Of a stretch of DNA of 64,000 nt, positions 6,917 through 59,286 are shown piece after piece. This DNA is from Escherichia phage KEP2. The translations under genes and the position numbers were made by a program. The stretch lies in sequence record PP047752. The stretch is one strand, 5' to 3'. Under the pieces are notes generated by a model. That model was given only the letters and a program-made list of their open reading frames with translations, was not told the DNA's origin and searched no databases. How positions within the stretch are numbered: the first letter of the stretch is position 1; the number at the start of each line of letters is the position of its first letter.

Positions 6917-6926
6917 TTTCTTTACA

Positions 6927-45717: not shown

Positions 45718-46266
45718 ATGAAGAAGTTGATTCTAGGTTTGTGCTTAATGTTTACAGCACACTTATCTTATGCAGTTGACTGCCCAGAGCTATCAATTAG
45801 CCAAAAAGTAAACATGCTAAAAGCTTACCAGTATGGTGAGAATAATATGGGTAAAGGTTGGGGTATCACTCTAGCTGCTATAGCCTTACAAGAGTCAGAG
45901 TTAGGTCTGAAGGTAGAGAATAAAAAGACCCATGACTATGGTATTTTCCAGAATCACTTGAAGACTGTTGTAAAGCGTAACAAAATCAGTCCTAATGTGG
46001 CTAAAAAGAAACTCTTAAAAGATTTTGACTATGCTGCAAAGGAAACACACAAAGAGCTTGAGTTTTGGGCGAAGGTACATGGTCAACCAAAGTCAAAGAA
46101 GACTTTACAAAAAGTTTTAGCATCATATAATGCTGGGTATTCGTACAAAATACCTAAAGCTAAGAAATACTCTCAAGATGTCTATAACAATATGAAAGTT
46201 ATTGCTCAATGTGAATTTGCAACAAACATTTCTAAGGTAAATCATGAAAAAATTAAGAAAGTCTGA
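45718..46266 (+). CDS. secreted protein, possible lytic transglycosylase-like
   Basis: Signal peptide MKKLILGLCLMFTAHLSYA; ALQESELG ... DYGIFQ resembles SLT catalytic ES...GLMQ pattern; weak. Confidence 0.35.
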   Translation: MKKLILGLCLMFTAHLSYAVDCPELSISQKVNMLKAYQYGENNMGKGWGITLAAIALQESELGLKVENKKTHDYGIFQNHLKTVVKRNKISPNVAKKKLLKDFDYAAKETHKELEFWAKVHGQPKSKKTLQKVLASYNAGYSYKIPKAKKYSQDVYNNMKVIAQCEFATNISKVNHEKIKKV

Positions 46267-49692: not shown

Positions 49693-50478
49693 ATGGGTAT
49701 TGTAAAAATCATCAATGGGGATATCTTCTCCGCATTTGATAAAGGTAAGTTTGATATCATTGGTCACGGTTGCAACTGTATGAACTTAATGGGTGCAGGT
49801 ATCGCTGATAAGATTTCTAAACTTTACCCAAAAGCATATGAGACCGATACAGAAGTTTATCTGTATGCAGGTGGTATAGGCCACAAACCCTGTGAAAATT
49901 TACTAGGCAATTTCTCTGTAGCACGTTTAGAACAAGGCCGTATAGCTAACCTTTACACTCAGCTTAAGACTGGTAAAGATGCCCGATATAGTGCTTTAGA
50001 GTCATCTTTGAAACAGCTTAACAGATACTGTGAAGTCAATCAGTTGAAGAAAGTTGGGTTACCTATGATTGGTGCAGGTATCGGTGGACTAGACTCTCAA
50101 GCCGTCACAGTCATCATTAATCAGGTGATGAAGAGTGTAGATGTGTATCTGTATGTCTATGAAGGAGAGATGTACCACAAGTTACGCTCAGGTTGGAAGA
50201 ACTACTGTGAACCAGAATACTTTGCAGGTGTAGTAGTATTCACTAATGATGCAGTTACCCTCTTCAGACGAAGAAAAGGCAAGATACATCAAAGTAACCC
50301 TCCGGTTGAAAAGATGTCTCTAAGTAACGCTCTAGTTACCCACCTGTCGAAGAGCAATCACAGAATTGCAGTAACATTTGGCAGTGATGCAGATACATAT
50401 ATCTATGCAAGAACTGATGAGGATGTTGAGGAAATTTTCTCTTCACCGGAAGTAACCTTCTTAGACGCAAAGAACTAA
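49693..50478 (+). CDS. macro-domain-like protein (ADP-ribose binding/processing)
   Basis: NGDIF...DIIGHGCNCMNLMGAGIADKI ... VGLPMIGAGIGGLD parallels macro-domain GDIT...IVNAAN..GGGV ... FP.IS.G.YG pattern. Confidence 0.5.
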   Translation: MGIVKIINGDIFSAFDKGKFDIIGHGCNCMNLMGAGIADKISKLYPKAYETDTEVYLYAGGIGHKPCENLLGNFSVARLEQGRIANLYTQLKTGKDARYSALESSLKQLNRYCEVNQLKKVGLPMIGAGIGGLDSQAVTVIINQVMKSVDVYLYVYEGEMYHKLRSGWKNYCEPEYFAGVVVFTNDAVTLFRRRKGKIHQSNPPVEKMSLSNALVTHLSKSNHRIAVTFGSDADTYIYARTDEDVEEIFSSPEVTFLDAKN

Positions 50479-50551
50479 GAAACTCTGTAGAATATTCACA
50501 ATAGGTTAAGCCTTTCTTATCTGGTAAATTTTTCAGGTAAGGAGGGCTTTT

Positions 50552-50745
50552 TCATTTCAGGATTGTGCAGGTAGAGTTCTGGACAGAAATCTGTAGAGAA
50601 AATTTTGAACTCCAAAGAGAAAATTCATTTTCAAACTGTGCAGGTAATCTCCAAAGAGCTTTTTCATTTTCAAAACGTGCAGACCCCGCTCAGGTCGGGC
50701 AAGAAAAATCATTTTAGAATTGTGCAGGTAGGTGGGTGCAGGTGG
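50552..50745. repeat. four iteron-like repeats CATTT(T)CAnrAnTGTGCAGGTA
   Basis: Copies at ~50552, 50626, 50664 (degenerate) and 50710, plus GGTGGGTGCAGGTGGGG tail; non-coding. Confidence 0.5.
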
Positions 50746-50907
50746 GGATGTCGCCATTTCTCACAAGGCTACCACATCTGAAAAGAAAAGTCAACAGAAA
50801 AATTTGTAGCGGATTGAAAAATAATTCTTGATTGTAGTTCTGTTTTGTGGTAGTCGCGTGCGCCCGTTTCATTACAGCTTTTTGCAAAAATATTTTTAAA
50901 ATTCCTA

Positions 50908-50936
50908 TTGACTCTCTGACTATGGTTATTTAGTAT
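50908..50936 (+). promoter_or_regulatory. sigma70-like promoter TTGACT-17-TAGTAT
   Basis: Upstream of first gene of small-ORF array. Confidence 0.45.
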
Positions 50937-50986
50937 TTGCATCAGACAGGCAAACAAGCCTACTTCCTAAATTGGAGATTTAAAAA

Positions 50987-51193
50987 ATGATTTACAGCCG
51001 TGAATTGATGGTTACAACCAACGTTAATACAAAGGTAAAACGTTTTTACATGCAAGTGTGCGGCGCATGGCGTAGAATATCAGAAGCTGATTATTGCAAC
51101 TATGTAGAAACGGCAATCAATTCTAATTGCTACCTTACGAAGAATACAAAGCGACATATAAAACAGACAGCGGTTTACTATTACGATATATAA
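50987..51193 (+). CDS. small early-type protein (array gene 1)
   Basis: 68 aa; leader AAATTGGAGATTTAAAAAATG similar to cassette leader. Confidence 0.4.
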   Translation: MIYSRELMVTTNVNTKVKRFYMQVCGAWRRISEADYCNYVETAINSNCYLTKNTKRHIKQTAVYYYDI

Positions 51194-51200
51194 AAAGTAC

Positions 51201-51283
51201 TTTACAGGGGGCTTAAAAGCTGGTATCTTAAGCCCCAGATAAAGAGCTTTACTAAATTAACCCTTAAACTAGGAGATTCAAAA
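51201..51283 (+). promoter_or_regulatory. canonical promoter/stem-loop/leader cassette (copy a)
   Basis: TTTACA-17nt-TATCTT with spacer and -10 inside GGGGCTTAA...TTAAGCCCC hairpin, then AGATAAAGAGCTTTAC...CCTTAAACTAGGAGATTCAAAAATG. Confidence 0.55.
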
Positions 51284-51664
51284 ATGGCTTATCGTGCACC
51301 TAAATTCATCAACAAAGACAACTTTCGCAACGCACTGGAGAAGTCACTTGATGAAAATTTTAAAGGTAACATTATCGTTGTTCACGCATTCAATTTTAAG
51401 TATGATGTAAACGGGAATAGAATCAACCATTACACAGCAACCATGTTAGATGGTACGCTATCAAGTGAAAAAGCTGTACTGAATGCACTTGCAGGACGTG
51501 GTAAAAACCTGATAAGATGCGATAAGAGACGTTATCAGGGTGGCGCATATGGTTATGATGATGCTGTTTATCATCTTGAAAATATGGGCTATTCAGTGGA
51601 AAAAGCTGGAGCGTCTCAAATAATCGGCAGTGACGGCTATGTGACAATTTTCAAAATTAACTAA
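51284..51664 (+). CDS. small early-type protein (array gene 2)
   Basis: 126 aa, cassette-driven. Confidence 0.45.
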   Translation: MAYRAPKFINKDNFRNALEKSLDENFKGNIIVVHAFNFKYDVNGNRINHYTATMLDGTLSSEKAVLNALAGRGKNLIRCDKRRYQGGAYGYDDAVYHLENMGYSVEKAGASQIIGSDGYVTIFKIN

Positions 51665-51672
51665 TAAAGTAC

Positions 51673-51752
51673 TTTACAGGGGGCTTATAGTTCGATAAAG
51701 TAAGCCCCAGATAAAGAGCTTTACCACTAAATCCTAAATTGGAGATTCAAAA
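51673..51752 (+). promoter_or_regulatory. canonical cassette (copy b)
   Basis: TTTACA-GGGGGCTTATagttcgaTAAAGTAAGCCCC-AGATAAAGAGCTTTACC...AAATTGGAGATTCAAAAATG. Confidence 0.55.
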
Positions 51753-52043
51753 ATGGCTATTATTAAAAACGTTGTAATTCCTGCAAAAACTCGTGATGAC
51801 GCTCGCATCATGGCGAAAAAGTTAGGCGGGAAAGTGGTTGACAACGGAAAACAAACTGCTGTAAGGTGGAACGTGAAGGCGGATAAACAAATGAATTTAA
51901 AAAATTCACCAATAAACTTTTTTACATGTGTAAACACTATCGGGAAAACGAATGTATACACTAAAAAGGCATATATCAGACGCATCGCCATGACGTCACC
52001 TATTCGCACAATGAGAAGTCATGCAAAGATGAAAATTAAGTAA
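51753..52043 (+). CDS. small early-type protein (array gene 3)
   Basis: 96 aa, basic. Confidence 0.45.
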   Translation: MAIIKNVVIPAKTRDDARIMAKKLGGKVVDNGKQTAVRWNVKADKQMNLKNSPINFFTCVNTIGKTNVYTKKAYIRRIAMTSPIRTMRSHAKMKIK

Positions 52044-52051
52044 TAGAGTAC

Positions 52052-52133
52052 TTTACAGGGGGCTTAAAAGCTGATATCTTAAGCCCCAGATAAAGAGCTT
52101 TACCACTCAATCCTTAAACTAGGAGATTCAAAA
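52052..52133 (+). promoter_or_regulatory. canonical cassette (copy c)
   Basis: Near-identical to copy a (TTTACA...TATCTTAAGCCCC...CTAGGAGATTCAAAAATG). Confidence 0.55.
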
Positions 52134-52646
52134 ATGAAAACTGTAGACGCTACCTTTGAAGTTGTAAAAGAAAAATTTTCCATCATTTACGAAGCTGTCA
52201 ATTGCTACGAAGCAAGCCATAATCTTGATAATTGGAAGTTTACAGATGACCATCAAGGCGGTGTGACTATTAAAAACCCCAACTGTCAGCGTAATGGATT
52301 TAAATATGCAATTCCTTTACATTACAGCCTTAAACAGCTTTCAATTGACTATGCAAAACAAGGCCGGGAAAATCCATCGAAAGAGGCTTACATCAGCTTA
52401 CAGAAAGAACTAGAAAGAGATTTAGAGGCTTCAGAATATAACATCGCCGCGAAAGTTGTAGATGCAAACGGTAGCACGGTTTTAGAGAGTTTTTATATTG
52501 GTTATGCTTTCGATTGGTGCTACAGTGACGGCGATGATTTAGATGACAGACTAAAAGAGGAAGTGAACAACGCAGACGCAGAATCTGAAGTATTAGAACG
52601 CTTGGAAGCATTAAAAGATTCAGTGATGAATATCTTTAAGAACTAA
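52134..52646 (+). CDS. small early-type protein (array gene 4)
   Basis: 170 aa, acidic C-terminus. Confidence 0.45.
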   Translation: MKTVDATFEVVKEKFSIIYEAVNCYEASHNLDNWKFTDDHQGGVTIKNPNCQRNGFKYAIPLHYSLKQLSIDYAKQGRENPSKEAYISLQKELERDLEASEYNIAAKVVDANGSTVLESFYIGYAFDWCYSDGDDLDDRLKEEVNNADAESEVLERLEALKDSVMNIFKN

Positions 52647-52655
52647 ATAGACCTC

Positions 52656-52737
52656 TTTACACGGGGCTAACAAGCTGATATGATAGCCCCAGATAAAGAG
52701 ATTTATCAAATTAACCCTTAAACTAGGAGATTCTAAA
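52656..52737 (+). promoter_or_regulatory. canonical cassette (copy d)
   Basis: TTTACA-cGGGGCTaacaagctgaTATGATAGCCCC; -10 TATGAT; leader ...CTAGGAGATTCTAAAATG. Confidence 0.55.
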
Positions 52738-53034
52738 ATGAAATTATCAAATAAAGTTAGGGAAAACCTTAGCAAATTACTCAATAAAATTGATTTTATC
52801 GAGACATCAAGAAATAGTCATGATGTTATGGAATGGTTACACGGCAAAATAAAAGGCCGTCGTGTAGTGATTTGCTTATGGAACAGTTGCAGGGAGTATA
52901 AAAAACCTGTATTGCAAGTTAATATATACGATAATACTTTTAAAAGTCCTGTTAAATCTAAAAGTGATTTATTAGAATCTTATGAGATAACTGTAAATGG
53001 CAAGGTATCACGTAAAGAGGTAACACCATGTTAA
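52738..53034 (+). CDS. small early-type protein (array gene 5)
   Basis: 98 aa. Confidence 0.4.
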   Translation: MKLSNKVRENLSKLLNKIDFIETSRNSHDVMEWLHGKIKGRRVVICLWNSCREYKKPVLQVNIYDNTFKSPVKSKSDLLESYEITVNGKVSRKEVTPC

Positions 53035-53360
53035 TGATGGGTATCACTGCAATCATTGCCATTATAGCACTTTATAAGGCTTACAGCGCATATAATTTGG
53101 CAAGTAAGGCAATCACGCAGCAGGTCAATAATAACCTTGTAATGAGCTTTCTGGAGCGTTTAAGCGATGAACAAATAAAACGGTTAGAAATGAGCTTCAG
53201 ATTTCAATCAAAAACTTATCAAATCAGCGACATTTTCAAAGATGATTTTCAGCTTGTCGATGATTATAACTCTCTGATAAATGCTTTAAATATCAGTGAT
53301 TTAAAAGATTATCATGCTGTAATAGTTCAAGAATTGAGCAAACGAAAAAATTCCTCTTGA
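53028..53360 (+). CDS. small membrane protein (array gene 6)
   Basis: N-terminal TM helix MGITAIIAIIALY; ATG overlaps upstream stop. Confidence 0.4.
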   Translation: MLMMGITAIIAIIALYKAYSAYNLASKAITQQVNNNLVMSFLERLSDEQIKRLEMSFRFQSKTYQISDIFKDDFQLVDDYNSLINALNISDLKDYHAVIVQELSKRKNSS

Positions 53361-53370
53361 TTTTGGTTTT

Positions 53371-53448
53371 TAAAACAAGTAAATTACTAATCAACGGGAG
53401 GTAATAACCTCCCCACTAAGTAAAGTCCTTAAACTAGGAGATTCAAAA
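53371..53448 (+). promoter_or_regulatory. variant cassette (copy e)
   Basis: AAAACAAGTAAATTACTAATCAACGGGAGGtaataaCCTCCCCACTAAGTAAAGTCCTTAAACTAGGAGATTCAAAAATG; different hairpin, same 3' leader. Confidence 0.45.
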
Positions 53449-53721
53449 ATGTATACTACTAACAACGGTCGCACTTTGAACGTAACCCTGCGCCACTATG
53501 TGAACGGTGTAATGCACTTCGAGGATTTACAAGCCGAACAACATATCTTGGATTGGCAAGTAGCAGGACTCCAAAAAACTGCTACAGGATACGGGAAAAA
53601 GATTCCAACTAGTTGGAAAGTATACTACGAAGGGCGTTTGCGCAGAATTTATCAAGATGTATACAGTAATAGCGCATCAAGTTACATCATAGTAAAAGGT
53701 AAAAAGCTGCATTTAGTATAA
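53449..53721 (+). CDS. small early-type protein (array gene 7)
   Basis: 90 aa. Confidence 0.4.
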   Translation: MYTTNNGRTLNVTLRHYVNGVMHFEDLQAEQHILDWQVAGLQKTATGYGKKIPTSWKVYYEGRLRRIYQDVYSNSASSYIIVKGKKLHLV

Positions 53722-53726
53722 AGTAC

Positions 53727-53806
53727 TTTACAAGGGGCTTATAGTTCGATAAAGTAAGCCCCAGATAAAGAGCTTTATCACTCAATCCTAAATTGGAGAT
53801 TCTAAA
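53727..53806 (+). promoter_or_regulatory. canonical cassette (copy f)
   Basis: TTTACAaGGGGCTTATagttcgaTAAAGTAAGCCCC-AGATAAAGAGCTTTATC...GGAGATTCTAAAATG. Confidence 0.55.
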
Positions 53807-54211
53807 ATGGCTATTAATAACCGTGAGTTATCAATCTTAAAAGCACGTTTGACCGTTAACCGGATTAATGTTATTACATCATCAGCACCGGATGAGACAT
53901 TGCACAACATTATCGGGAAGATTCAAAGTGTTATCTTAGACGTTGAAAACGTAAAAAACTCATTGGCTGACGTTGCAGCAGGTATCACGCTAGACGGCGC
54001 ACAATATGAAATGGCTGACATGTTAGGCAAATCTAAGGTAATGAATAAAGAGCTTGATTTAAAAATGTTTCGTTTTGCTGTTAAAGTGTGGCTATCTGTC
54101 GAGTATGACGCAAATTTTGCAATCGCTGACTTTTTCGCAACATGGTTGCAACGTAATTTAACAAATCATGATTTTCGTGATATCTGCGATATAATTTACG
54201 CAGAACTCTAA
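53807..54211 (+). CDS. small early-type protein (array gene 8)
   Basis: 134 aa. Confidence 0.4.
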   Translation: MAINNRELSILKARLTVNRINVITSSAPDETLHNIIGKIQSVILDVENVKNSLADVAAGITLDGAQYEMADMLGKSKVMNKELDLKMFRFAVKVWLSVEYDANFAIADFFATWLQRNLTNHDFRDICDIIYAEL

Positions 54212-54218
54212 AAAACTG

Positions 54219-54312
54219 TTGACACGGATTTTTAGATAGATTAAATTACGCATTAACGGGGAGGGAATGAACTTCCCCACTAAATAAAGTCCTTAAACTA
54301 GGAGATTCTAGA
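54219..54312 (+). promoter_or_regulatory. variant cassette (copy g) with explicit TTGACA-17-TAAATT promoter
   Basis: TTGACA 54219-54224, TAAATT 54242-54247, then GGGGAGGGaatgaaCTTCCCC hairpin and CCTTAAACTAGGAGATTCTAGAATG leader. Confidence 0.5.
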
Positions 54313-54510
54313 ATGGCTATCATTAACGGCTTAAACATTGAAACTACTCACATCAAAGATATCAAAGTTGGCGATATAGTCCTTTTTCACGGCGTAGAAA
54401 AAACTGTTACTGCAAAGGATATTAAAGAGGATTCTTTCATGGGTAGGACTCTCTTCGGTGATTCTTATTGCTTAGGTTATCTTGCAGTTTTAAAAGTTGT
54501 CAAACATTAA
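54313..54510 (+). CDS. small early-type protein (array gene 9)
   Basis: 65 aa. Confidence 0.4.
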   Translation: MAIINGLNIETTHIKDIKVGDIVLFHGVEKTVTAKDIKEDSFMGRTLFGDSYCLGYLAVLKVVKH

Positions 54511-54523
54511 CTAATAAAGTACT

Positions 54524-54603
54524 TTACAAGGGGCTTATAGTTCGATAAAGTAAGCCCCAGATAAAGAGCTTTACCACTAAATCCTAAACTGGAGATTCAA
54601 AAA
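54524..54603 (+). promoter_or_regulatory. canonical cassette (copy h)
   Basis: Same as copy f/b family. Confidence 0.55.
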
Positions 54604-55167
54604 ATGAAATGCTATCACGGTACTACCCTCAAAAACTTTGTAAACCTGCTGAATGGTGGCGACAAGCCGGAAGGTATCTGGAACTGCTCCTACATGGACG
54701 ATTGTTTCTATGTTTACCCAATGAATAAGATTATCAAAACGGAATGTCTGGAAGATGAGGAAGATTCTTACATCCGTGAACGCTGCATTCAAAACGCTTT
54801 AGAATCGGGGCTTATCACGGCAGCTTTCCAAATGGAAACGCAGGAAATAATTGTCATTGAAATGGATATCCCAGAGGAAGAACTTGAGGACGATTATTCT
54901 TGCGACAACATGAGCGATATCGCCAGCTTTACCGGACACTTTGATAAGGATTGGATTATCGGCCTTCACTCGACGAAATTTAGTGCGATGTATGCGCCTT
55001 TCTTTGTACCGGATGCAACTAATCGCAATTTAGGCTATGTTGACGATGATTTGTTAACTATGGCGAAAATTGTACAGAATAGCGGTGATTCTTCTGTGTA
55101 TTGTGACCTACTGGATAAAATCACGGCAAACATCACAGAGCGCAATTTAAAAGACTTTTTAGGTTAA
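54604..55167 (+). CDS. acidic early-type protein (array gene 10)
   Basis: 187 aa, strongly D/E-rich. Confidence 0.45.
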   Translation: MKCYHGTTLKNFVNLLNGGDKPEGIWNCSYMDDCFYVYPMNKIIKTECLEDEEDSYIRERCIQNALESGLITAAFQMETQEIIVIEMDIPEEELEDDYSCDNMSDIASFTGHFDKDWIIGLHSTKFSAMYAPFFVPDATNRNLGYVDDDLLTMAKIVQNSGDSSVYCDLLDKITANITERNLKDFLG

Positions 55168-55194
55168 TCAGTACAAAGACACCAACTTCCAACT

Positions 55195-55230
55195 TAAGGC
55201 CCGTACAGGGCCATTTAGAGGGCTTCAATC
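55195..55230 (+). promoter_or_regulatory. divergent cassette (copy i): GGCCCgtacaGGGCC hairpin + TAGAGGG SD
   Basis: No canonical leader; hairpin directly upstream of gene. Confidence 0.3.
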
Positions 55231-55464
55231 ATGCTTACAACCATTTACCTCATCCTTTCCATTTGTAATGGTCATTCATGCGATTTTAAAGGGCTTGAGG
55301 AGTTTACAGGGAGTAAAGAAAATGTTATTCATGCCTGTCAGATAGCAAGGCAAGACTATCCCGCCAGTGATGATATACAATGTTACTTTAAGACAGAAGA
55401 TGAAGACGGCGTCTATTTTGACAGTGTCGATGGTCAATATGAAATTATCATTGAAAAAGACTAG
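55231..55464 (+). CDS. small early-type protein (array gene 11)
   Basis: 77 aa. Confidence 0.4.
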   Translation: MLTTIYLILSICNGHSCDFKGLEEFTGSKENVIHACQIARQDYPASDDIQCYFKTEDEDGVYFDSVDGQYEIIIEKD

Positions 55465-55477
55465 ACAAGCCTGATAA

Positions 55478-55551
55478 AAGTCTGTAAATTGTCAATCAAC
55501 GGGAGGGATGACCTCCTACTAAACAAAATCCTTAAACTAGGAGATTCGAAA
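55478..55551 (+). promoter_or_regulatory. variant cassette (copy j)
   Basis: CTGTAAATTGTCAATCAACGGGAGGGatgaCCTCCtACTAAACAAAATCCTTAAACTAGGAGATTCGAAA. Confidence 0.45.
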
Positions 55552-55893
55552 ATGGCTTATGTAACCGTAATTACCAATAAAGAAGATTCATCTTGGTCAA
55601 CTCAAGTAAGTGACAAGATGTCACCTATGCAGTGCCTAAAATACTTTGAGCAATGGAACAAAGGTGAGGAAACAAGCCCCTTTCAAGTAATGCAGATTAT
55701 CCATACAGACAACGAAGGGAATAAAACTGTTTTGAATAGTGAGTACTATGCAACCAGATTCGAAACGAGAAGTAAAGCAATGAAGCTCTTACGTGAATCC
55801 GGTTATTCTCATATTGCCGCGCTAATCTGGGATGACCTCCTAAAAAGTCAGCGTATCAGTTATGTAAAACCTGAAAAAATATTCATCAGTTAA
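55552..55893 (+). CDS. small early-type protein (array gene 12)
   Basis: ATG directly after cassette leader; ORF-track upstream extension (55489) runs through the cassette and is rejected. Confidence 0.45.
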   Translation: MAYVTVITNKEDSSWSTQVSDKMSPMQCLKYFEQWNKGEETSPFQVMQIIHTDNEGNKTVLNSEYYATRFETRSKAMKLLRESGYSHIAALIWDDLLKSQRISYVKPEKIFIS

Positions 55894-55931
55894 TCAACAA
55901 CTTACAAAAAACTTTTAAAAAAGTGTTGACA

Positions 55932-56113
55932 ATGCCCCTTGACATTGGTAACTTTGTTCGAGGGGGTTTATCTAAAAGGGATTAACTTAAAAGATTCTTT
56001 ATAGATAAACTTAAAAAATTGCTTGCAATCAGATATCAAAACAAGTAAATTACTAATCAACGGGAGGGATAACCTCCCCACTAAGTAAAGTCCTTAAACT
56101 AGGAGATTCAAAA
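55932..56113 (+). promoter_or_regulatory. extended variant cassette (copy k) with tandem TTGACA boxes
   Basis: GTTGACAATGCCCCTTGACA (same arrangement as 20012-20031) then AAAACAAGTAAATTACTAATCAACGGGAGGGataaCCTCCCC...CTAGGAGATTCAAAAATG. Confidence 0.45.
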
Positions 56114-56644
56114 ATGAACAAATTTCAAGCTATCAATTACATCCGCTCAAATAGTGTTATGTCAAAGCCTGTTAAAGACACCTATGAATTTCGTTGCAAT
56201 GGTGTACACTTTGCAACCATCACCAAATCAGAAAACGGGGCTTATTACGTTCATCGCCGTAATGTTGCAACCGTTGTAGTCTCTCACTTTATGCAAGCTG
56301 TCGCGGAACTTCTCCCGATGTTTTTAGGGCTTTACTTAGATGAGTGTAAGCACATTCATAACCATGTTAAAAGCCTTTTAAACGGTTATAAAATGGCTTA
56401 TGAGCGTTCTATCAAGTCCTTAAACAAGTTTTACAACGCACCTGAAAACACCGTATCAATGGCATACGCTGTAAAGGGTGAGGCGGTGAGTCTCTTCGAA
56501 GTGGAAGAAATCGAGCTTTATGACCATCGCCCCAATGGTTACGCTAAAACTCTCGGTGAAGGTTTAACGTTCAATATCAAGAACTTAGAAAAAACTTTAA
56601 AAGATATTGAAAAAGATATTGACGAGACAATCAAAAGTCTGTAA
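56114..56644 (+). CDS. early-type protein (array gene 13)
   Basis: 176 aa. Confidence 0.45.
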   Translation: MNKFQAINYIRSNSVMSKPVKDTYEFRCNGVHFATITKSENGAYYVHRRNVATVVVSHFMQAVAELLPMFLGLYLDECKHIHNHVKSLLNGYKMAYERSIKSLNKFYNAPENTVSMAYAVKGEAVSLFEVEEIELYDHRPNGYAKTLGEGLTFNIKNLEKTLKDIEKDIDETIKSL

Positions 56645-56649
56645 ATTGT

Positions 56650-56712
56650 CAATCAACGGGGAGGGAATGACCTTCCCCACTAAATAAAGTCCTTAAACTA
56701 GGAGATTCTAAA
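56650..56712 (+). promoter_or_regulatory. variant cassette (copy l)
   Basis: TTGTCAATCAACGGGGAGGGaatgaCCTTCCCCACTAAATAAAGTCCTTAAACTAGGAGATTCTAAAATG. Confidence 0.45.
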
Positions 56713-56961
56713 ATGGCAACTATCCGCGCAATTGTAAATTCTTATGGCTGCTACACTCTGGACGTTAAATTTGATATAGGTGGGACCGATGAGTGTTTCG
56801 AACTGGTGAAAACAGTCATTAAACAAGTTATCCCAGACTATAACCCTACTGATGACTTCTGGAAAGATGCAGTAAAAGAGGCGTTGAACGATGAATATCA
56901 TTACCATTATTGGGGTGATTTGATTGTCTCCCTGTACTACAATAAACAAGGTTGCAACTAA
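56713..56961 (+). CDS. small early-type protein (array gene 14)
   Basis: 82 aa. Confidence 0.4.
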   Translation: MATIRAIVNSYGCYTLDVKFDIGGTDECFELVKTVIKQVIPDYNPTDDFWKDAVKEALNDEYHYHYWGDLIVSLYYNKQGCN

Positions 56962-56998
56962 TCGGCGCAACGGGGCAAATAGCCCCAGATACCTTTAT

Positions 56999-57021
56999 AG
57001 CCCCTTAAATGGGGCTTTTTT
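56999..57021 (+). terminator. intrinsic terminator ending the small-gene array
   Basis: AGCCCC-ttaaat-GGGGCT followed by TTTTT; preceded by degenerate cassette-like hairpin GGGGCaaatAGCCCCAGATACC. Confidence 0.55.
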
Positions 57022-57374
57022 ACGTCTTATCAAATCCTATACAATCCTTTTCCTTTCCTTTCCAGAGTCTTACTAGACCTTAAAAGCAATAACTCTATAG
57101 CTTACTCTATAACCTTTTATCAAATCAACTTAAATATAAGCCCATAACCCGAAAGGGAAGGGCAACCGTTTAAACGCTCTATAAAGCTCTATAACAGCCT
57201 TATCAACCTAACTTAAGGGATTGCATTAACTCACCCTTAAAAGCCCTTTATAAAGCTTCCTAGAGCCTTAAAAGAATCTTATAAGGGTGTAAGCTTTATT
57301 ATCTCGTTAGTATCTTGTGAACTACTAAAAAGGGGCTTGTTAGTTACTAAAAAGTATGTTATAGGGGCTATAAA

Positions 57375-57516
57375 GTTACGTAAAAGTAGCTTAAAAGTTA
57401 CGTAAAAGTAGCTTAAAAGTTACGTAAAAGTAGCTTAAAAGTTACGTAAAAGTAGCTTAAAAGTTACGTAAAAGTAGCTTAAAAGTTACGTAAAAGTAGC
57501 TTAAAAGTTACGTAAA
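57375..57516. repeat. 22-bp direct tandem repeat GTTACGTAAAAGTAGCTTAAAA x6 plus partial
   Basis: Six perfect units 57375-57506 and a 10-bp partial; each unit has palindromes TTACGTAA and AGCT. Confidence 0.9.
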
Positions 57517-57573
57517 TGCTAGCCCCCTTAACATTTTCTTAACAATCCCTACATAGTTATGCTTTTAAGGCAC

Positions 57574-58110
57574 TTGTTAGCAACTTGTTAAATCTCTGTT
57601 AAAACCATGTAAAAGCCTTGTAAGAGTCTTTGGCATAGCCTTTAAAGCCCCTGAAAAGCCTTATAAAGAGGTGTCTACATAGTTGGGGTGCAATTACTAG
57701 GGAGAGACTAAAAAGAGCTTATAAGGAGTTATAAAGAGCTTTTAAAAGGGCTATTTAAAAGGTCACTAAGAGGGAAAGGGAACGATAAGAAAAGAGATAG
57801 TGACCATGTTAATAGCTTGTTAAAAAGGTTAAACACTTGTTAGGAACTTGTTAATTATCTTAACAAAATAACTCTTTAAAATTAACTTGTTAGCTCTTGT
57901 TAGTCATCTGTTAAGCCTCTGTAAAGACTATGTATCAACTGTTAAGAAACTGTTACCCTCTTGTTAAAACTGTTAAGAATCTGTTAAGACCTTTGAAGAG
58001 ATGTTAAGAAGATGTATCAACTGTTAAGAGATTGTTAATGATATTTTAAAATTCTGCAAAGGGGATGTTACAGGGATGTTAAGGGCTACCAAGCAGATAT
58101 ACATCTTCTA
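57574..58110. repeat. dense cluster of short direct motifs (C/T)TGTTAA(G/A), more than 20 copies
   Basis: e.g. ACTTGTTAGCAACTTGTTAAATCTCTGTTAAAACC; ATGTATCAACTGTTAAGA occurs twice (~57925 and ~58008); non-coding. Confidence 0.7.
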
Positions 58111-58538
58111 CAGATATTTTTGAGTTCCTTCAAAGACCCTAAAAAATGACTTGACAACTCTATTTTATAAAAATTTTAAAATTCTGAATAATTACCTATA
58201 CAGTCTTTTAAAAATACAGGCATAAACAGGCTTATAAGATACCTTGTTAGTACCGTGTTAGACCTTGTGAGATAAGGTCTTTAAAGATATTCCTGTTAAG
58301 TTTGTTAAAACAGTCTATATAGAGGCTTAGTAATACCTAGTGAACACCTATAGAGGGTAACATAGCTGACATAGAGATTAAGAGGTGTATAGGGGCTTCT
58401 AAGAGGGTGTAGAGGAATGGTTAAGGTGATTGTATAGGTTGTTAAGAAGGCTTGTTAGAGGGCTATTTAGAAGGGCTATACAGAGGGACTATTAAGACCA
58501 CTAGATAGATACTAAGATACTATATAGTACTATATAAC

Positions 58539-58556
58539 TATATATATATATATATA
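58539..58556. repeat. (TA)9 dinucleotide repeat within AT-rich TACTATATA-type sequence
   Basis: TATATATATATATATATA; candidate DNA-unwinding element. Confidence 0.7.
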
Positions 58557-58658
58557 GAGAGTAAGCTTAAGAAGGTTGTTAAGAAGGATAGATATTTTAT
58601 TCACATATGATGGTGACCCAGAGGTTGGGACAACCGATGAAATTTTATAAAAAAATTA

Positions 58659-58691
58659 AAAAGCCCCCAATTAAGGAGGCTCTTAAGATAT
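58659..58691 (-). terminator. intrinsic terminator for the - strand block
   Basis: On - strand: AGCCUCC-uuaauu-GGGGGCU followed by UUUUUAAUUUUUUU. Confidence 0.5.
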
Positions 58692-58692
58692 T

Positions 58693-59286
58693 TTAAATCA
58701 GTGTTTCCAGAACTGTCTTCAGTGATGACTTGGTTGTCTGATAAAAATGAGTAAATCCATTGTTGTTATCGAATACCTGCATCATGATATCATCTCCCTT
58801 GATTGGGTACACTCGGATATCATAGTGGAACCCATTAAATACAGCAGAACCATTACAGAATGAACTGAAATCATCCACTGAGATATACTCCTCATGCCCT
58901 GTGATTTTTATACAGATACCCTTACTCGGTCTCTTAGGGTTAATATCTTCCATCACAGACATATTCTGTCCACCAAGAGATACCATAGTGACCACTTTAC
59001 GATTTTTCTGTCTAAAGTACATCTTAACTTTCTGTAAAGTGTCTTCATAGAACGGATAAGACCTTTCTACAAAGATTCCTTCAAGTGGCTCTTTACCATT
59101 TTCAACTTCTCTGTTATGCCGTACTGCAAAGATAATTTGTTGGAACCAGTCAAGATTTTCTTCGGATAGTGCTTCTCGAATATCATTCCAGTCAAGGACT
59201 AGGTAGTTGCCTTCAACTTCTTTTAAGTTATCTTTTTCCATATCTATCACACCATTATCGTAAAACTTGGTAATCTGGTACTGCAA
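58693..59286 (-). CDS. hypothetical protein
   Basis: 197-aa ORF, last gene of - strand block. Confidence 0.35.
   Translation of the reverse strand: MQYQITKFYDNGVIDMEKDNLKEVEGNYLVLDWNDIREALSEENLDWFQQIIFAVRHNREVENGKEPLEGIFVERSYPFYEDTLQKVKMYFRQKNRKVVTMVSLGGQNMSVMEDINPKRPSKGICIKITGHEEYISVDDFSSFCNGSAVFNGFHYDIRVYPIKGDDIMMQVFDNNNGFTHFYQTTKSSLKTVLETLI

What the first reader, a model, noticed from the sequence alone, without database searches (positions are those of the whole stretch)
50900..57022. Array of ~14 small ORFs, nearly all headed by a conserved promoter/stem-loop/leader cassette
Between 50.9 and 57.0 kb, 14 small genes (65-187 aa, no recognisable domains) sit in one orientation. At least 11 are preceded by an ~85-bp element: a -35 box (TTTACA or TTGACA), a 17-18-nt spacer and -10 embedded in a GC hairpin (GGGGGCTTA...TAAGCCCC, or variant GGGAGG...CCTCCC), then a conserved leader AGATAAAGAGCTTTAC...CCTTAAACTAGGAGATTCAAAAATG. 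The cassette is far more conserved than the genes it drives; a degenerate copy with no gene follows the last ORF (56965-57000). Related hairpin promoters occur at 6921, 39661 and 44434. This looks like a mobile regulatory cassette system (comparable to PeSL elements of T4-type phages) driving a hypervariable early-gene island, the usual home of host-takeover and anti-defence proteins.
Basis: partly seen in the sequence, partly recalled or inferred. Interest (0 to 1): 0.85.

Follow-up and report, generated by a model that had tools for sequence, protein, structure and literature searches.

The report
Modular promoter–hairpin cassettes heading phage early genes
A Felix O1-type phage heads almost every gene in a 6-kb block of small unknown genes with a copy of one of two standard promoter–hairpin–ribosome-site units, and related phages have gained and lost genes by recombining between these units, much as PeSL elements do in T4-type phages.

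Summary
The window is a Felixounavirus (Felix O1-like myovirus). Between two canonical terminators (50508-50549, 56999-57016) lie 14 same-strand small genes. Eleven carry a repeated ~85-nt upstream unit, and a twelfth carries a related one.

- Class A (6 copies): TTTACA-17-TAnnnT. A GC hairpin is nested between the -35 and +1, followed by an invariant box AGATAAAGAG.TTT.
- Class B (5 copies): a TTGACA-like -35, 17 nt, then TAAATT, all upstream. The hairpin starts 10 nt after the -10, so it lies at the very 5' end of the mRNA.
- Both end in the same leader and SD module.

The units occur only in this island and only in Ounavirinae (four genera). In relatives, all nine indel events end inside cassettes. 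The four junctions I aligned are chimeric cassettes. The same gene can sit behind either class.

U·G wobbles, always U in the 5' arm, favour a plus-strand RNA role for the class A hairpin. It has no U-tract, so it is not a classical terminator.

The cargo is modest: 26 families in 410 cassette-led ORFs, with order largely kept. It is not hypervariable. One gene has a weak ADP-ribosyltransferase-like fold.

Earlier work recorded these units only as direct repeats. My verdict is a PeSL-like system with a new geometry in a new subfamily. Transcription starts are untested.

The parts
50508..50559 (+). Canonical intrinsic terminator closing the upstream operon. It is the left border of the island and corresponds to Felix O1 t13.
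   Evidence: 17-bp stem followed by a T-run. The sequence matches t13 in Table 2 of PMC3185647.
50908..50986 (+). Island entry unit: promoter TTGACT-17-TAGTAT, a small 5'-UTR hairpin AGGC(AAACAA)GCCT at 50948-50961, and the SD module CCTAAATTGGAG. It drives gene 50987.
   Evidence: fold z = -2.2.
50987..51193 (+). Gene 1, 68 aa, unknown function (phrog_5293). Absent in AYO145A, Mushroom, bumzen and wV8.
51194..51283 (+). Class A cassette A1. It has -35 TTTACA at 51201, a 9-bp GC hairpin at 51208-51236 spanning the spacer and the -10 TATCTT, a predicted start near 51237, the A-box AGATAAAGAGCTTTAC, and the leader/SD.
51284..51664 (+). Gene 2, 126 aa, unknown function. Absent in Felix O1. It sits behind a class B-type unit in AYO145A, Mushroom and bumzen.
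51665..51752 (+). Class A cassette A2 (-35 at 51673, -10 TAAAGT in the loop).
   Evidence: z = -2.5.
51753..52043 (+). Gene 3, 96 aa, unknown function. Absent in Felix O1. It has strongly divergent alleles.
52044..52133 (+). Class A cassette A3 (-35 at 52052).
52134..52646 (+). Gene 4, 170 aa. The structural model is confident (pLDDT 85) but has no meaningful structural match. Absent in wV8; present in the Erwinia phage Tian.
52647..52737 (+). Class A cassette A4 (-35 at 52656, TG-extended -10 TATGAT, stem GGGGCTA/TAGCCCC, A-box variant GATAAAGAGATTTATC).
   Evidence: z = -4.3.
52738..53360 (+). Genes 5 and 6 (98 and 110 aa). They overlap by 7 nt and have no cassette between them, so they form a two-gene unit conserved as a pair in the Felixounavirus, Suspvirus and Mooglevirus loci.
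53357..53448 (+). Class B cassette B1. It has TTGATT-17-TAAATT (53357-53385), a predicted start near 53392, the 5'-terminal hairpin GGGAGGT(AATA)ACCTCCC from 53396, then ACTAAGTAAAGT and the SD module.
   Evidence: z = -3.0.
53449..53721 (+). Gene 7, 90 aa, unknown function.
53722..53806 (+). Class A cassette A5 (-35 at 53727).
   Evidence: z = -3.2.
53807..54211 (+). Gene 8, 134 aa, unknown function.
54212..54312 (+). Class B cassette B2. It has TTGACA-17-TAAATT (54219-54247) and the hairpin GGGGAGG/CTTCCCC with a G·U pair from 54258.
54313..54510 (+). Gene 9, 65 aa. SUSP2 and Maleficent carry an unrelated 82-aa gene in this slot. Absent in Felix O1.
54511..54603 (+). Class A cassette A6 (-35 at 54523).
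   Evidence: z = -3.2.
54604..55167 (+). Gene 10, 187 aa. It has a weak ADP-ribosyltransferase-like fold, the N-terminal motif KCYHGTT, and an invariant E86. It is the orthologue of Bas63 gp107 and is absent in Felix O1.
   Evidence: One search found no sequence-level support. PMC11482910.
55168..55464 (+). A 63-nt spacer holding a different hairpin, GGCCC(GTACA)GGGCC at 55198-55212, with no cassette. It is followed by gene 11 (55231-55464, 77 aa).
55462..55551 (+). Class B cassette B3. It has TAGACA-17-TAAATT, with the -35 overlapping the stop codon of gene 11, and the hairpin GGGAGG/CCTCCT with a G·U pair.
   Evidence: z = -2.6.
55552..55893 (+). Gene 12, 113 aa, with its true start at ATG 55552. 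It sits behind a class A unit in wV8 and Maleficent.
56023..56113 (+). Class B cassette B4. It has TTGCAA-17-TAAATT and the hairpin GGGAGG(GATAA)CCTCCC from 56062. It is preceded by a 130-nt extra spacer (55894-56022).
56114..56644 (+). Gene 13, 176 aa, unknown function.
56619..56712 (+). Class B cassette B5. Its -35 (TTGACG) and its spacer (apart from the last base) lie inside the 3' end of gene 13, and its -10 TAAATT overlaps the stop codon. The hairpin GGGGAGGG/CCTTCCCC starts at 56658.
   Evidence: z = -2.6.
56713..56961 (+). Gene 14, 82 aa. Absent in Mushroom.
56965..57022 (+). Gene-less cassette remnant, CAACGGGGC(AAATA)GCCCCAGATA, followed by the canonical terminator AGCCCCTTAAATGGGGCTTTTTT. 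It is the right border of the island. The remnant was the crossover partner in the Mushroom deletion.

Best explanation
The island is an array of largely self-contained, mostly single-gene early expression units. They are read by host σ70 RNA polymerase and built from interchangeable modules.

Class A unit:
- A promoter TTTACA-17-TAnnnT.
- An 8-9-bp GC hairpin encoded between the -35 and +1.
- A new transcript starts at or near AGAUAAAGAG, just after the hairpin.
- The hairpin is therefore present only in RNA reading through from the gene upstream. There it most likely acts as a 3' attenuator, a processing or stabilising structure that insulates one unit from the next.

Class B unit:
- A TTGACA-like -35, 17 nt, then TAAATT.
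- The transcript begins 2-4 nt before a GC hairpin. This is the geometry of a 5'-terminal stem-loop that protects mRNA from 5'-end-dependent decay.

Both classes end in one standard leader, ..CCACTAAAT..CCT(T)AAACT(A)GGAGATTCnAAAATG. In it a CCU(U) tract can pair weakly with the SD.

Because 40-90 nt of near-identical sequence flanks unrelated genes, the phage or host homologous recombination machinery deletes, inserts, swaps and re-heads genes at these units. Each product keeps one intact unit per gene.

Shown: the sequence architecture, its conservation across four genera, cassette-bounded indels, and four chimeric junctions.

Inferred: promoter use, transcription start positions, the RNA-level roles of both hairpins, and early timing in this particular phage.
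For: Promoters:
- All six class A and most class B/entry promoters are picked up by a consensus scan at 17-nt spacing.
- In 41 distinct class A cores from four genera, TTTACA, the TA of the -10 and AGATAAAGAG are invariant. The last T of the -10 is at least 90% conserved, although the loop sequences differ.

Geometry:
- The class A stem starts 1 nt after the -35 in every phage.
- The class B stem starts 9-11 nt after the -10 in the Felixounavirus, Suspvirus and Mooglevirus loci. No class B unit was identified in the Erwinia locus.
- This holds despite differing stems: GGGAGG, GGGGAGGG/CCTTCCCC, GGGC/GCCC, GGGA/TCCC, GGGGC/GCCCC, GGGGG/CCCCC.

RNA-level pairing:
- The class A helix is 96.8% paired.
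- One pair shows the series C-G 21, U·G 18, U-A 1. Another shows G-C→U-A in the Erwinia copies.
- The wobble always has U in the 5' arm, which would be an A·C mismatch on the other strand.
- All 12 folded units have negative z-scores, -1.2 to -4.3.

Insulation:
- Canonical terminators occur only at the two borders of the island.

Recombination:
- Nine distinct indel events in Felixounavirus relatives all have both ends in cassettes or the entry unit. Flanking alignments overlap by 22-97 nt where the event lies between full cassettes.
- Three-way alignments show A1/A3, B2/B3 and A3/A4 chimeras. They also show a B5 × remnant crossover at CAACGGGG.
- The same gene family occurs behind both classes, for example 51284 at 17 A / 18 B and 55552 at 5 A / 24 B.
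- Divergent alleles (56-65% aa identity) sit between conserved cassettes.

Timing:
- In Felix O1, ORFs 16, 20, 21 and 22 are maximal at 5 min, and ORFs 17, 19 and 23 at 25 min.
Against: - No transcript 5' or 3' ends are available for any Ounavirinae phage. Every start site here is a prediction.
- Formal covariation for the class B stem is not significant. G-run and C-run arms pair equally well when slid by one column.
- Class A covariation rests on few independent events among related sequences.
- The class A hairpin has no U-tract, so a termination role is doubtful.
- Indel ends must lie between genes to be viable, so enrichment in intergenic DNA is partly a selection effect.
- The RT-PCR timing in Felix O1 is mixed (5 and 25 min) and does not track cassette class.
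- The invariant A-box is not explained. A hairpin reading of it fails, because the second pair is unpaired in 31 of 41 sequences.
Confidence: 0.68

Rival explanations
1. Ordinary vertical inheritance. Under this view these are just good σ70 promoters, terminator-like hairpins and strong ribosome sites. They stay similar because each is selected for strength, and the repeats play no role in genome change.
For: - Gene order is largely conserved across Felixounavirus, Suspvirus and Mooglevirus.
- Only 26 cargo families were found.
- Orthologous cassettes are slightly more alike than paralogous ones, for example 0.82 against 0.78 for window vs SUSP2.
Against: - Identity extends well beyond the functional hexamers. 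There are 40-60-nt identical cores, an invariant A-box, and ACTAA.TAAAGT.
- The four junctions examined are chimeric cassettes.
- The same gene sits behind different classes in different phages.
- Genus-specific variants are shared by a genome's copies. Examples are GGTG/CACC in all four Erwinia class A units, and the SD-module forms by genome.
Confidence: 0.12
2. The inverted repeats are DNA operators for a phage-encoded dimeric regulator. It would sit on the promoter core (class A) or just downstream of it (class B) to shut early genes off. The invariant AGATAAAGAG.TTT box at +1 to +16 would be part of that site.
For: - The class A repeat covers the spacer, the -10 and the discriminator, a classic operator position.
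- The A-box is invariant across four genera without forming a supported RNA helix.
- Some orthologues peak at 5 min, so a shut-off mechanism must exist.
Against: - The U·G wobbles are strand-asymmetric. They would break DNA symmetry (18 of 41 sequences).
- The two classes have unrelated stems.
- Loop length and sequence vary.
- No candidate DNA-binding protein was identified in the island.
Confidence: 0.1
3. The hairpins are recognition sites for a site-specific recombination system, in the manner of integron attC sites or homing elements. That system, not general homologous recombination, would move the gene cassettes.
For: - The array has one orientation with one gene per repeat, which is superficially integron-like.
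- Arbiol et al. speculated about a protein recognising the GGGG..CCCC stems in PeSLs (PMC2839356).
Against: - Crossovers map to different parts of the units: the core, the hairpin/leader, the SD module, and an 8-nt microhomology.
- No integrase or nuclease domain occurs in the island.
- Gene order is mostly conserved.
Confidence: 0.05

Closest known systems
PeSL (promoter-early stem-loop) cassettes of T4-type phages (Arbiol et al. 2010, PMC2839356; Comeau et al. 2014, PMC4122927)
   Same: - About 85-100-nt intergenic units that combine a σ70-type early promoter, a GGGG..CCCC-type stem-loop, an SD and an ATG.
- They are repeated in front of unrelated small non-essential ORFs in a plastic region.
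- Indels and replacements between close relatives are bounded by the units and leave chimeric copies.
- The -35 TTTACA matches the T4/PST PeSL consensus TTTACW-N17-TAYWAT.
   Different: - Phage subfamily: Ounavirinae, not T4-like.
- PeSL stem-loops lie just upstream of the -35. Here the stem-loop is nested between -35 and +1 (class A) or transcribed at the 5' end of the mRNA (class B).
- There is an extra invariant +1 box (AGATAAAGAG.TTT) and a longer shared leader.
- No reporter or mini-circle data exist for these units.
- All copies are confined to a single island rather than spread over several hyperplastic regions.
5'-terminal stabilising stem-loops of E. coli mRNAs (ompA-type; Emory, Bouvet & Belasco 1992, cited from memory)
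   Same: Class B and the entry unit place a stable hairpin 2-4 nt from the predicted 5' end. That is the geometry required for protection from 5'-end-dependent RNase E decay.
   Different: - The function here is inferred from spacing only.
- The start sites are unmapped.
- The hairpins are much more GC-rich and are repeated as part of a cassette.
Direct repeats recorded in Felix O1 and wV8 (Whichard et al. 2010, PMC3185647; GenBank EU877232 features DR_1-DR_9)
   Same: These are the same sequences. The 57-bp repeat CTTTACATGGGGCTTAAAAGTCTGTAAAGTAAGCCCCAGATAAAGAGCTTTACCACT is class A. The 39-bp repeat TTGACACTGGTTTTTAGATAGATTAAATTACACATCAAC is a class B promoter.
   Different: They were listed only as repeats. 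No promoter, structure or recombination role was proposed, and the paper's own promoter list omits them.
Intrinsic (rho-independent) terminators
   Same: A GC-rich stem-loop at the end of a gene. Four short-loop relatives with T-runs occur in this genome at 6921, 39661, 44434 and 56994.
   Different: The cassette hairpins have 11-14-nt loops (class A) and no U-tract. The scan finds terminators only at the island borders.

Membership tests
PeSL cassettes (T4-type phages) | σ70-like early promoter with -35, ~17-nt spacer and -10 | tested here: met
   TTTACA-17-TAnnnT is present in all 6 class A copies. A TTGACA-like -35, 17 nt and TAAATT are present in all 5 class B copies. This is sequence-level evidence only.
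PeSL cassettes (T4-type phages) | [quoted passage not shown] | tested here: not met
   The class A stem starts 1 nt after the -35 and ends at +1. The class B stem starts 10 nt after the -10. Compare the Fig. 3 legend of PMC4122927.
PeSL cassettes (T4-type phages) | SD and start codon of the downstream gene at the 3' end of the unit | tested here: met
   GGAG lies 8-9 nt before the ATG in all 11 cassettes.
PeSL cassettes (T4-type phages) | Indels or replacements between close relatives bounded by the units, with chimeric units at junctions | tested here: met
   All nine events have both ends in cassettes or the entry unit. Four junctions were resolved as chimeras.
PeSL cassettes (T4-type phages) | Resident in hyperplastic regions of a T4-like genome | tested here: not met
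   The host genome is a Felixounavirus of the Ounavirinae. The units occur in one island only.
PeSL cassettes (T4-type phages) | Measured promoter and terminator activity; mini-circle formation | not testable with these tools
   This needs lacZ fusions and inverse PCR as in PMC2839356.
Intrinsic terminator | GC stem-loop with a short loop, immediately followed by a U-tract | tested here: not met
   No cassette hairpin passes the terminator scan. Only 50508-50549 and 56999-57016 do, apart from one probably chance hit inside a gene.
5'-terminal stabilising stem-loop | Hairpin within about 4 unpaired nt of the mRNA 5' end | tested here: inconclusive
   The -10-to-stem distance is 9-11 nt in class B units from three genera. 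This predicts 2-4 unpaired nt if transcription starts 6-8 nt after the -10. No start site data exist.
Integron-type attC array | Adjacent integrase and recombination at a fixed point in a structured site | tested here: not met
   No integrase domain was found. Crossover positions vary.
Known RNA families (Rfam) | Match to a curated covariance model | tested here: not met
   Only two chance-level hits, on the opposite strand.
ADP-ribosyltransferase fold (gene 54604-55167) | ART core fold with an H-Y-E or R-S-E catalytic motif | tested here: inconclusive
   - The model has pLDDT 65.
- H5 is nearly invariant, and Y36 and E86 are invariant.
- There is no sequence-profile hit in the PDB.

The most novel reading that the evidence does not exclude
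Class A would be a distinct regulatory device in which an RNA hairpin is encoded inside the core of a promoter, between -35 and +1. Read-through RNA would then be ended, processed or stabilised exactly where the next transcript begins. The invariant +1 box AGAUAAAGAG.UUU would be a recognition site for a host or phage factor (for example RNase E or an early shut-off protein) that sets the lifetime of the whole early gene set. This would make the array a self-insulating, plug-in expression platform conserved across Ounavirinae.
Probability: 0.2. Interest if true: 0.7.

Novelty: new variant of a known kind. Interest (0 to 1): 0.55.

Why it matters
- It extends cassette-mediated modular shuffling, so far documented only in T4-like phages, to a second, unrelated and therapeutically important group: Felix O1-like phages, which are widely used against Salmonella and E. 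coli.
- It gives a concrete rule for where these genomes gain and lose small early genes.
- It supplies 11 precise, testable promoter and start-site predictions for a phage whose transcription programme is essentially unmapped.
- It offers ready-made insertion points, and compact promoter–UTR parts, for engineering these phages.
- It marks 14 (26 pan-genus) small early proteins, one of them a possible ADP-ribosyltransferase, as candidates for host-takeover screens.

Tried and rejected
1. **RegB idea.** An Erwinia relative annotates a 'RegB endoribonuclease' near its island, and the conserved GGAG leader could be its target. The window homologue (45718-46266, 45% identical) has a signal peptide, a weak SLT hit and no PDB match. 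The annotation is unreliable, so I dropped the idea.

2. **An upstream -10 for class A.** I asked whether the conserved TAAAGT before TTTACA is a -10, which would make the class A hairpin a 5'-UTR hairpin like class B. The -35 matches at the required distance are no better than random, except in one cassette. Rejected as a general feature.

3. **A-box as an AU hairpin.** This reading is not supported.

4. **Class B covariation.** The formal test was not significant, because the G-run and C-run arms pair in shifted registers.

5. **Position at a genome end.** I checked whether the island abuts a physical genome end, which would make it first-entering DNA. In UAB_Phi87 the island's class B hit lies about 17 kb from the start of the deposited record. 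I did not verify whether that record starts at the mapped 608-bp terminal repeat. I did not pursue this further.

6. **Concerted evolution.** Mean identities give only a weak signal. Diagnostic variants shared by a genome's copies are more telling.

7. **Sequence and structure searches.**
   - Rfam found nothing.
   - Pfam and PHROGs gave no function for any island protein.
   - Gene 52134 has a confident model but no structural relative.

8. **Literature.**
   - I found no transcript-end data for Felix O1-like phages.
   - The three complemented essential genes in the SUSP1 CRISPRi-ART screen lie outside the island.

9. **IMG/VR scan for the A-box.** Multi-copy hits occur only in contigs of Ounavirinae size. 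Single hits elsewhere are at chance level.

Full report
**Identity and setting**

The window is a Felix O1-like myovirus (genus Felixounavirus, subfamily Ounavirinae). The 6.1-kb region matches 253 phage records, the best at about 90% identity.

Two canonical intrinsic terminators bracket the island, at 50508-50549 and 56999-57016. Apart from one probably chance hit inside gene 54604 (54983-54997), the scan finds no terminator within the island. The left terminator is t13 of the Felix O1 paper and the right one is t23 (PMC3185647).

A macro-domain protein is encoded upstream (49693-50478). About 1.7 kb of ORF-poor DNA with a 22-bp tandem repeat lies downstream.

**Checking the observation**

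- Fourteen + strand ORFs of 65-187 aa are present at the stated positions.
- They share no paralogy, carry no Pfam domain, and fall into 14 different PHROGs of unknown function.
- The 18-mer CCTTAAACTAGGAGATTC occurs eight times exactly against 0.06 expected.
- GCCCCAGATAAAGAGCTTTA occurs six times against 0.01 expected.
- Neither motif occurs outside the island in 64 kb.
- Rfam has no family for these elements.

**Anatomy: two classes, not one**

Aligning the 115 nt before each start codon and scanning for promoters and hairpins separates two designs.

*Class A* heads genes 51284, 51753, 52134, 52738, 53807 and 54604. Reading 5' to 3':
1. An A/T-rich stretch.
2. TTTACA.
3. A 7-9-bp GC stem that starts one base later (GGGGCTTA…TAAGCCCC).
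4. An 11-14-nt loop that carries a -10 (TATCTT, TAAAGT or TATGAT) exactly 17 nt from the -35.
5. The invariant box AGATAAAGAG(C/A)TTTA, which begins at the predicted start.
6. The leader.

*Class B* heads genes 53449, 54313, 55552, 56114 and 56713. Reading 5' to 3':
1. A TTGACA-like hexamer, a 17-nt spacer and TAAATT. All lie upstream of the hairpin, and in two cases the -35 or more lies within or across the end of the preceding gene.
2. Ten nucleotides further on, the stem GGGAGG…CCTCCC or GGGGAGGG…CCTTCCCC.
3. ACTAA(A/G)TAAAGT.
4. The same SD module.

Gene 50987 has a third, related unit. It combines the entry promoter TTGACT-17-TAGTAT with a small AGGC…GCCT hairpin.

Two genes have no cassette. 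Gene 53028 overlaps 52738 by 7 nt. Gene 55231 is preceded by a different hairpin.

Its description of a -10 embedded in the hairpin, followed by the AGATAAAGAG leader, fits six of the eleven cassettes.

**Conservation**

BLAST with single cassettes finds class A in 287 records and class B in 239. Apart from four records with non-enterobacterial names, all are named for enterobacterial or Erwinia hosts and appear to be Ounavirinae. I fetched representatives of four genera: Felixounavirus, Suspvirus, Mooglevirus and Kolesnikvirus (Erwinia phages). Copy numbers per genome equal the number of copies in the island.

An IMG/VR scan for the A-box finds multiple copies only in contigs of 53-94 kb, most of them 81-94 kb.

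In 41 distinct class A cores from 12 loci:
- TTTACA, the TA of the -10 and AGATAAAGAG are invariant.
- The final T of the -10 is at least 90% conserved.
- The loop varies.

Across the Felixounavirus, Suspvirus and Mooglevirus loci, the class B stem starts 9-11 nt after the -10 although the stem sequence changes. Observed stems are GGGC/GCCC, GGGA/TCCC, GGGGC/GCCCC, GGGGG/CCCCC and GGGGAAG/CTTCCCC.

**Is the hairpin an RNA feature?**

For class A:
- The helix is 96.8% paired.
- One pair shows C-G (21), U·G (18) and U-A (1).
- Another switches G-C→U-A in the Erwinia copies.
- The wobble always has U in the 5' arm. It would be an A·C mismatch on the other strand and would break DNA symmetry.

This favours a + strand RNA role over a DNA operator, but the number of independent events is small.

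For class B, G·U pairs are common. However, the formal shuffle and slide controls are not significant, because G-runs and C-runs pair in shifted registers.

All 12 units fold better than dinucleotide shuffles, with z from -1.2 to -4.3. The folds also show a small CCU(U)…(A)GGA pairing over the SD. Of the 122 cassette SD modules tallied, 51 have both the extra T and the extra A (CCTTAAACTAGGAG) and 68 have neither. No mixed forms occur, and the other three are divergent Erwinia forms. That pattern fits either a base-pair constraint or simple linkage of two alleles.

**Recombination**

The 11 related loci show slot-wise presence and absence of genes on a largely conserved order.

Within Felixounavirus there are nine distinct events:
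- gain or loss of 50987;
- gain or loss of an extra 63-aa gene;
- gain or loss of 51284-51753;
- gain or loss of 52134;
- gain or loss of 54313-55231;
- loss of 56713;
- three further insertions.

Both ends of every event lie in cassettes or the entry unit. Flanking alignments overlap by 22-97 nt where the event lies between full cassettes.

Three-way alignments resolve four chimeric junctions:
- Felix O1 50987|52134 is left A1 and right A3, with the crossover inside the ~55-nt identical core.
- Felix O1 53807|55552 is B2/B3, crossing over in the hairpin or leader.
- wV8 51753|52738 is A3/A4, crossing over in the SD module.
- The Mushroom loss of 56713 joined B5 to the gene-less remnant at CAACGGGG.

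The varied crossover positions argue for homologous recombination, not a site-specific system.

Other signs of module exchange:
- Genes change class between phages. Gene 51284 is class A here and class B-type in AYO145A, Mushroom and bumzen. Gene 55552 is class B here and class A in wV8 and Maleficent.
- Across 410 cassette-led ORFs, several families occur behind both classes.
- One family occupies different slots in different phages.
- Some genes have very divergent alleles (56-65% aa identity) between conserved cassettes and conserved neighbours.

**Limits of the 'hypervariable, mobile' reading**

- Only 26 cargo families were found among the 410 ORFs.
- Gene order is shuffled only in the Erwinia phage.
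- Orthologous cassettes are only moderately more conserved than the coding DNA. Identities are 0.79 vs 0.74 (SUSP2), 0.78 vs 0.70 (Maleficent) and 0.69 vs 0.59 (Erwinia). Among close relatives they are equal.

**Mechanism proposed**

Each gene is its own σ70 unit.

In class B and the entry unit, the spacing predicts a hairpin 2-4 nt from the mRNA 5' end. From my own knowledge of the ompA-type paradigm, that is the geometry of a 5'-terminal stabiliser.

In class A, the predicted start lies just after the hairpin. Only read-through RNA would therefore contain the hairpin. I infer that it is an attenuator, or a 3' processing or stabilising structure, that insulates units from one another. The absence of a U-tract argues against classical termination. 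In RB49, PeSL stem-loops did terminate in reporter assays (PMC2839356).

The invariant +1 box is unexplained. It could aid promoter escape, be an RNase E-type site, or bind a factor.

An alternative upstream -10 for class A was tested and rejected.

**Timing and function of the genes**

Felix O1 RT-PCR puts ORFs 16, 20, 21 and 22 (orthologues of 52134, 53807, 55552 and 56114) at 5 min. ORFs 17, 19 and 23 peak at 25 min (mapped). The pattern does not correlate with cassette class.

Gene 54604:
- The model has modest confidence (pLDDT 65).
- A preprint notes a similar resemblance for its Bas63 orthologue gp107, which matters more in strain S17-1 (PMC11482910).
- There is no sequence-level support.

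Gene 52134 has a confident model without structural relatives.

**Prior knowledge and novelty**

The Felix O1 paper lists exactly these sequences as 57-bp and 39-bp direct repeats, without interpretation, and omits them from its promoter list. The wV8 GenBank record annotates DR_1-DR_9 at the same sites, and the wV8 paper does not discuss them. The four papers I found that mention PeSLs do not concern Felix-like phages, and the original PeSL paper does not mention Felix.

The closest known system is the PeSL cassette of T4-type phages. This island works like one in composition and in evolutionary effect. It fails two membership features: the position of the stem-loop and the phage group.

I rate it a new variant of a known kind. 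It is of solid but not outstanding interest until transcript ends are mapped.

Noticed in passing
window 50543-50730: Four copies of a ~25-nt motif, TTTTCATTT(T)CAnnnnGTGCAG(G), lie between the upstream terminator and the island's entry promoter. The motif occurs nowhere else in the window. It is also present at the same place in Citrobacter phage Maleficent. Its function is unknown; it could be a set of regulator binding sites.
   Followed up: partly
window 57372-57516 (within 57020-58700): A perfect 22-bp tandem repeat, AAAGTTACGTAAAAGTAGCTTA × 6.6, sits inside a ~1.7-kb ORF-poor stretch just after the island. The phage bumzen record annotates repeat regions at the equivalent place.
   Followed up: partly
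window 55894-56022: An extra 130-nt spacer before cassette B4 holds a strong promoter-like site (TTGACA-17-TAACTT) and a CCCCT…AGGGG inverted repeat, but no ATG ORF. Maleficent has a 46-aa gene in the same slot, and BPSELC-1 has an annotated 38-aa ORF there. It may be a decayed slot or a small RNA.
   Followed up: partly
window 49693-50478 and 54604-55167: A macro-domain protein (ADP-ribose binding or hydrolase fold), annotated 'phosphatase' in relatives, sits directly upstream of the island. The island itself contains a protein with an ADP-ribosyltransferase-like predicted fold. Together they may form an ADP-ribosylation writer/eraser pair.
   Followed up: partly
window 45718-46266: A 182-aa protein with a signal peptide and a weak lytic-transglycosylase hit. 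Its 45%-identical homologue in Erwinia phage Tian is annotated 'putative T4 endoribonuclease RegB'. That looks like a propagated mis-annotation.
   Followed up: yes
window 6921, 39661, 44434, 56994: At these four sites a -35-like hexamer (TTTACA, TTTATA or TTGACA) directly abuts a short-loop hairpin (GGGGCT(4 nt)AGCCCC at three sites, GCCCC(6 nt)GGGGC at 56994) followed by T's. These look like terminators fitted into a promoter-spacer-sized gap. Only 44434 has a good -10 (TTGACA-18-TAGAAT). They may be evolutionary relatives of the class A unit.
   Followed up: partly
window 51753-52043, 54604-55167, 56713-56961 versus L008 (Bas63) and L003 (Felix O1): These three genes are only 56-65% identical in protein between phages whose neighbouring genes are more than 90% identical and whose flanking cassettes are 85-97% identical. 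Homologues of 54604 are bimodal (97%, 78%, then ~57%). This suggests allele replacement between cassettes.
   Followed up: partly
all cassette SD modules, e.g. window 51262-51279 versus 51733-51748: The SD module exists in two states, CCTTAAACTAGGAG (51 copies) and CCTAAAyTGGAG (68 copies). They differ by a T and an A on either side of a 6-nt loop, and no mixed forms occur among 122 copies. SUSP2 and Maleficent have only the short form. Erwinia copies have CCCTTATAAAGGAA or CCTCAAAGAGG, which again can pair.
   Followed up: partly
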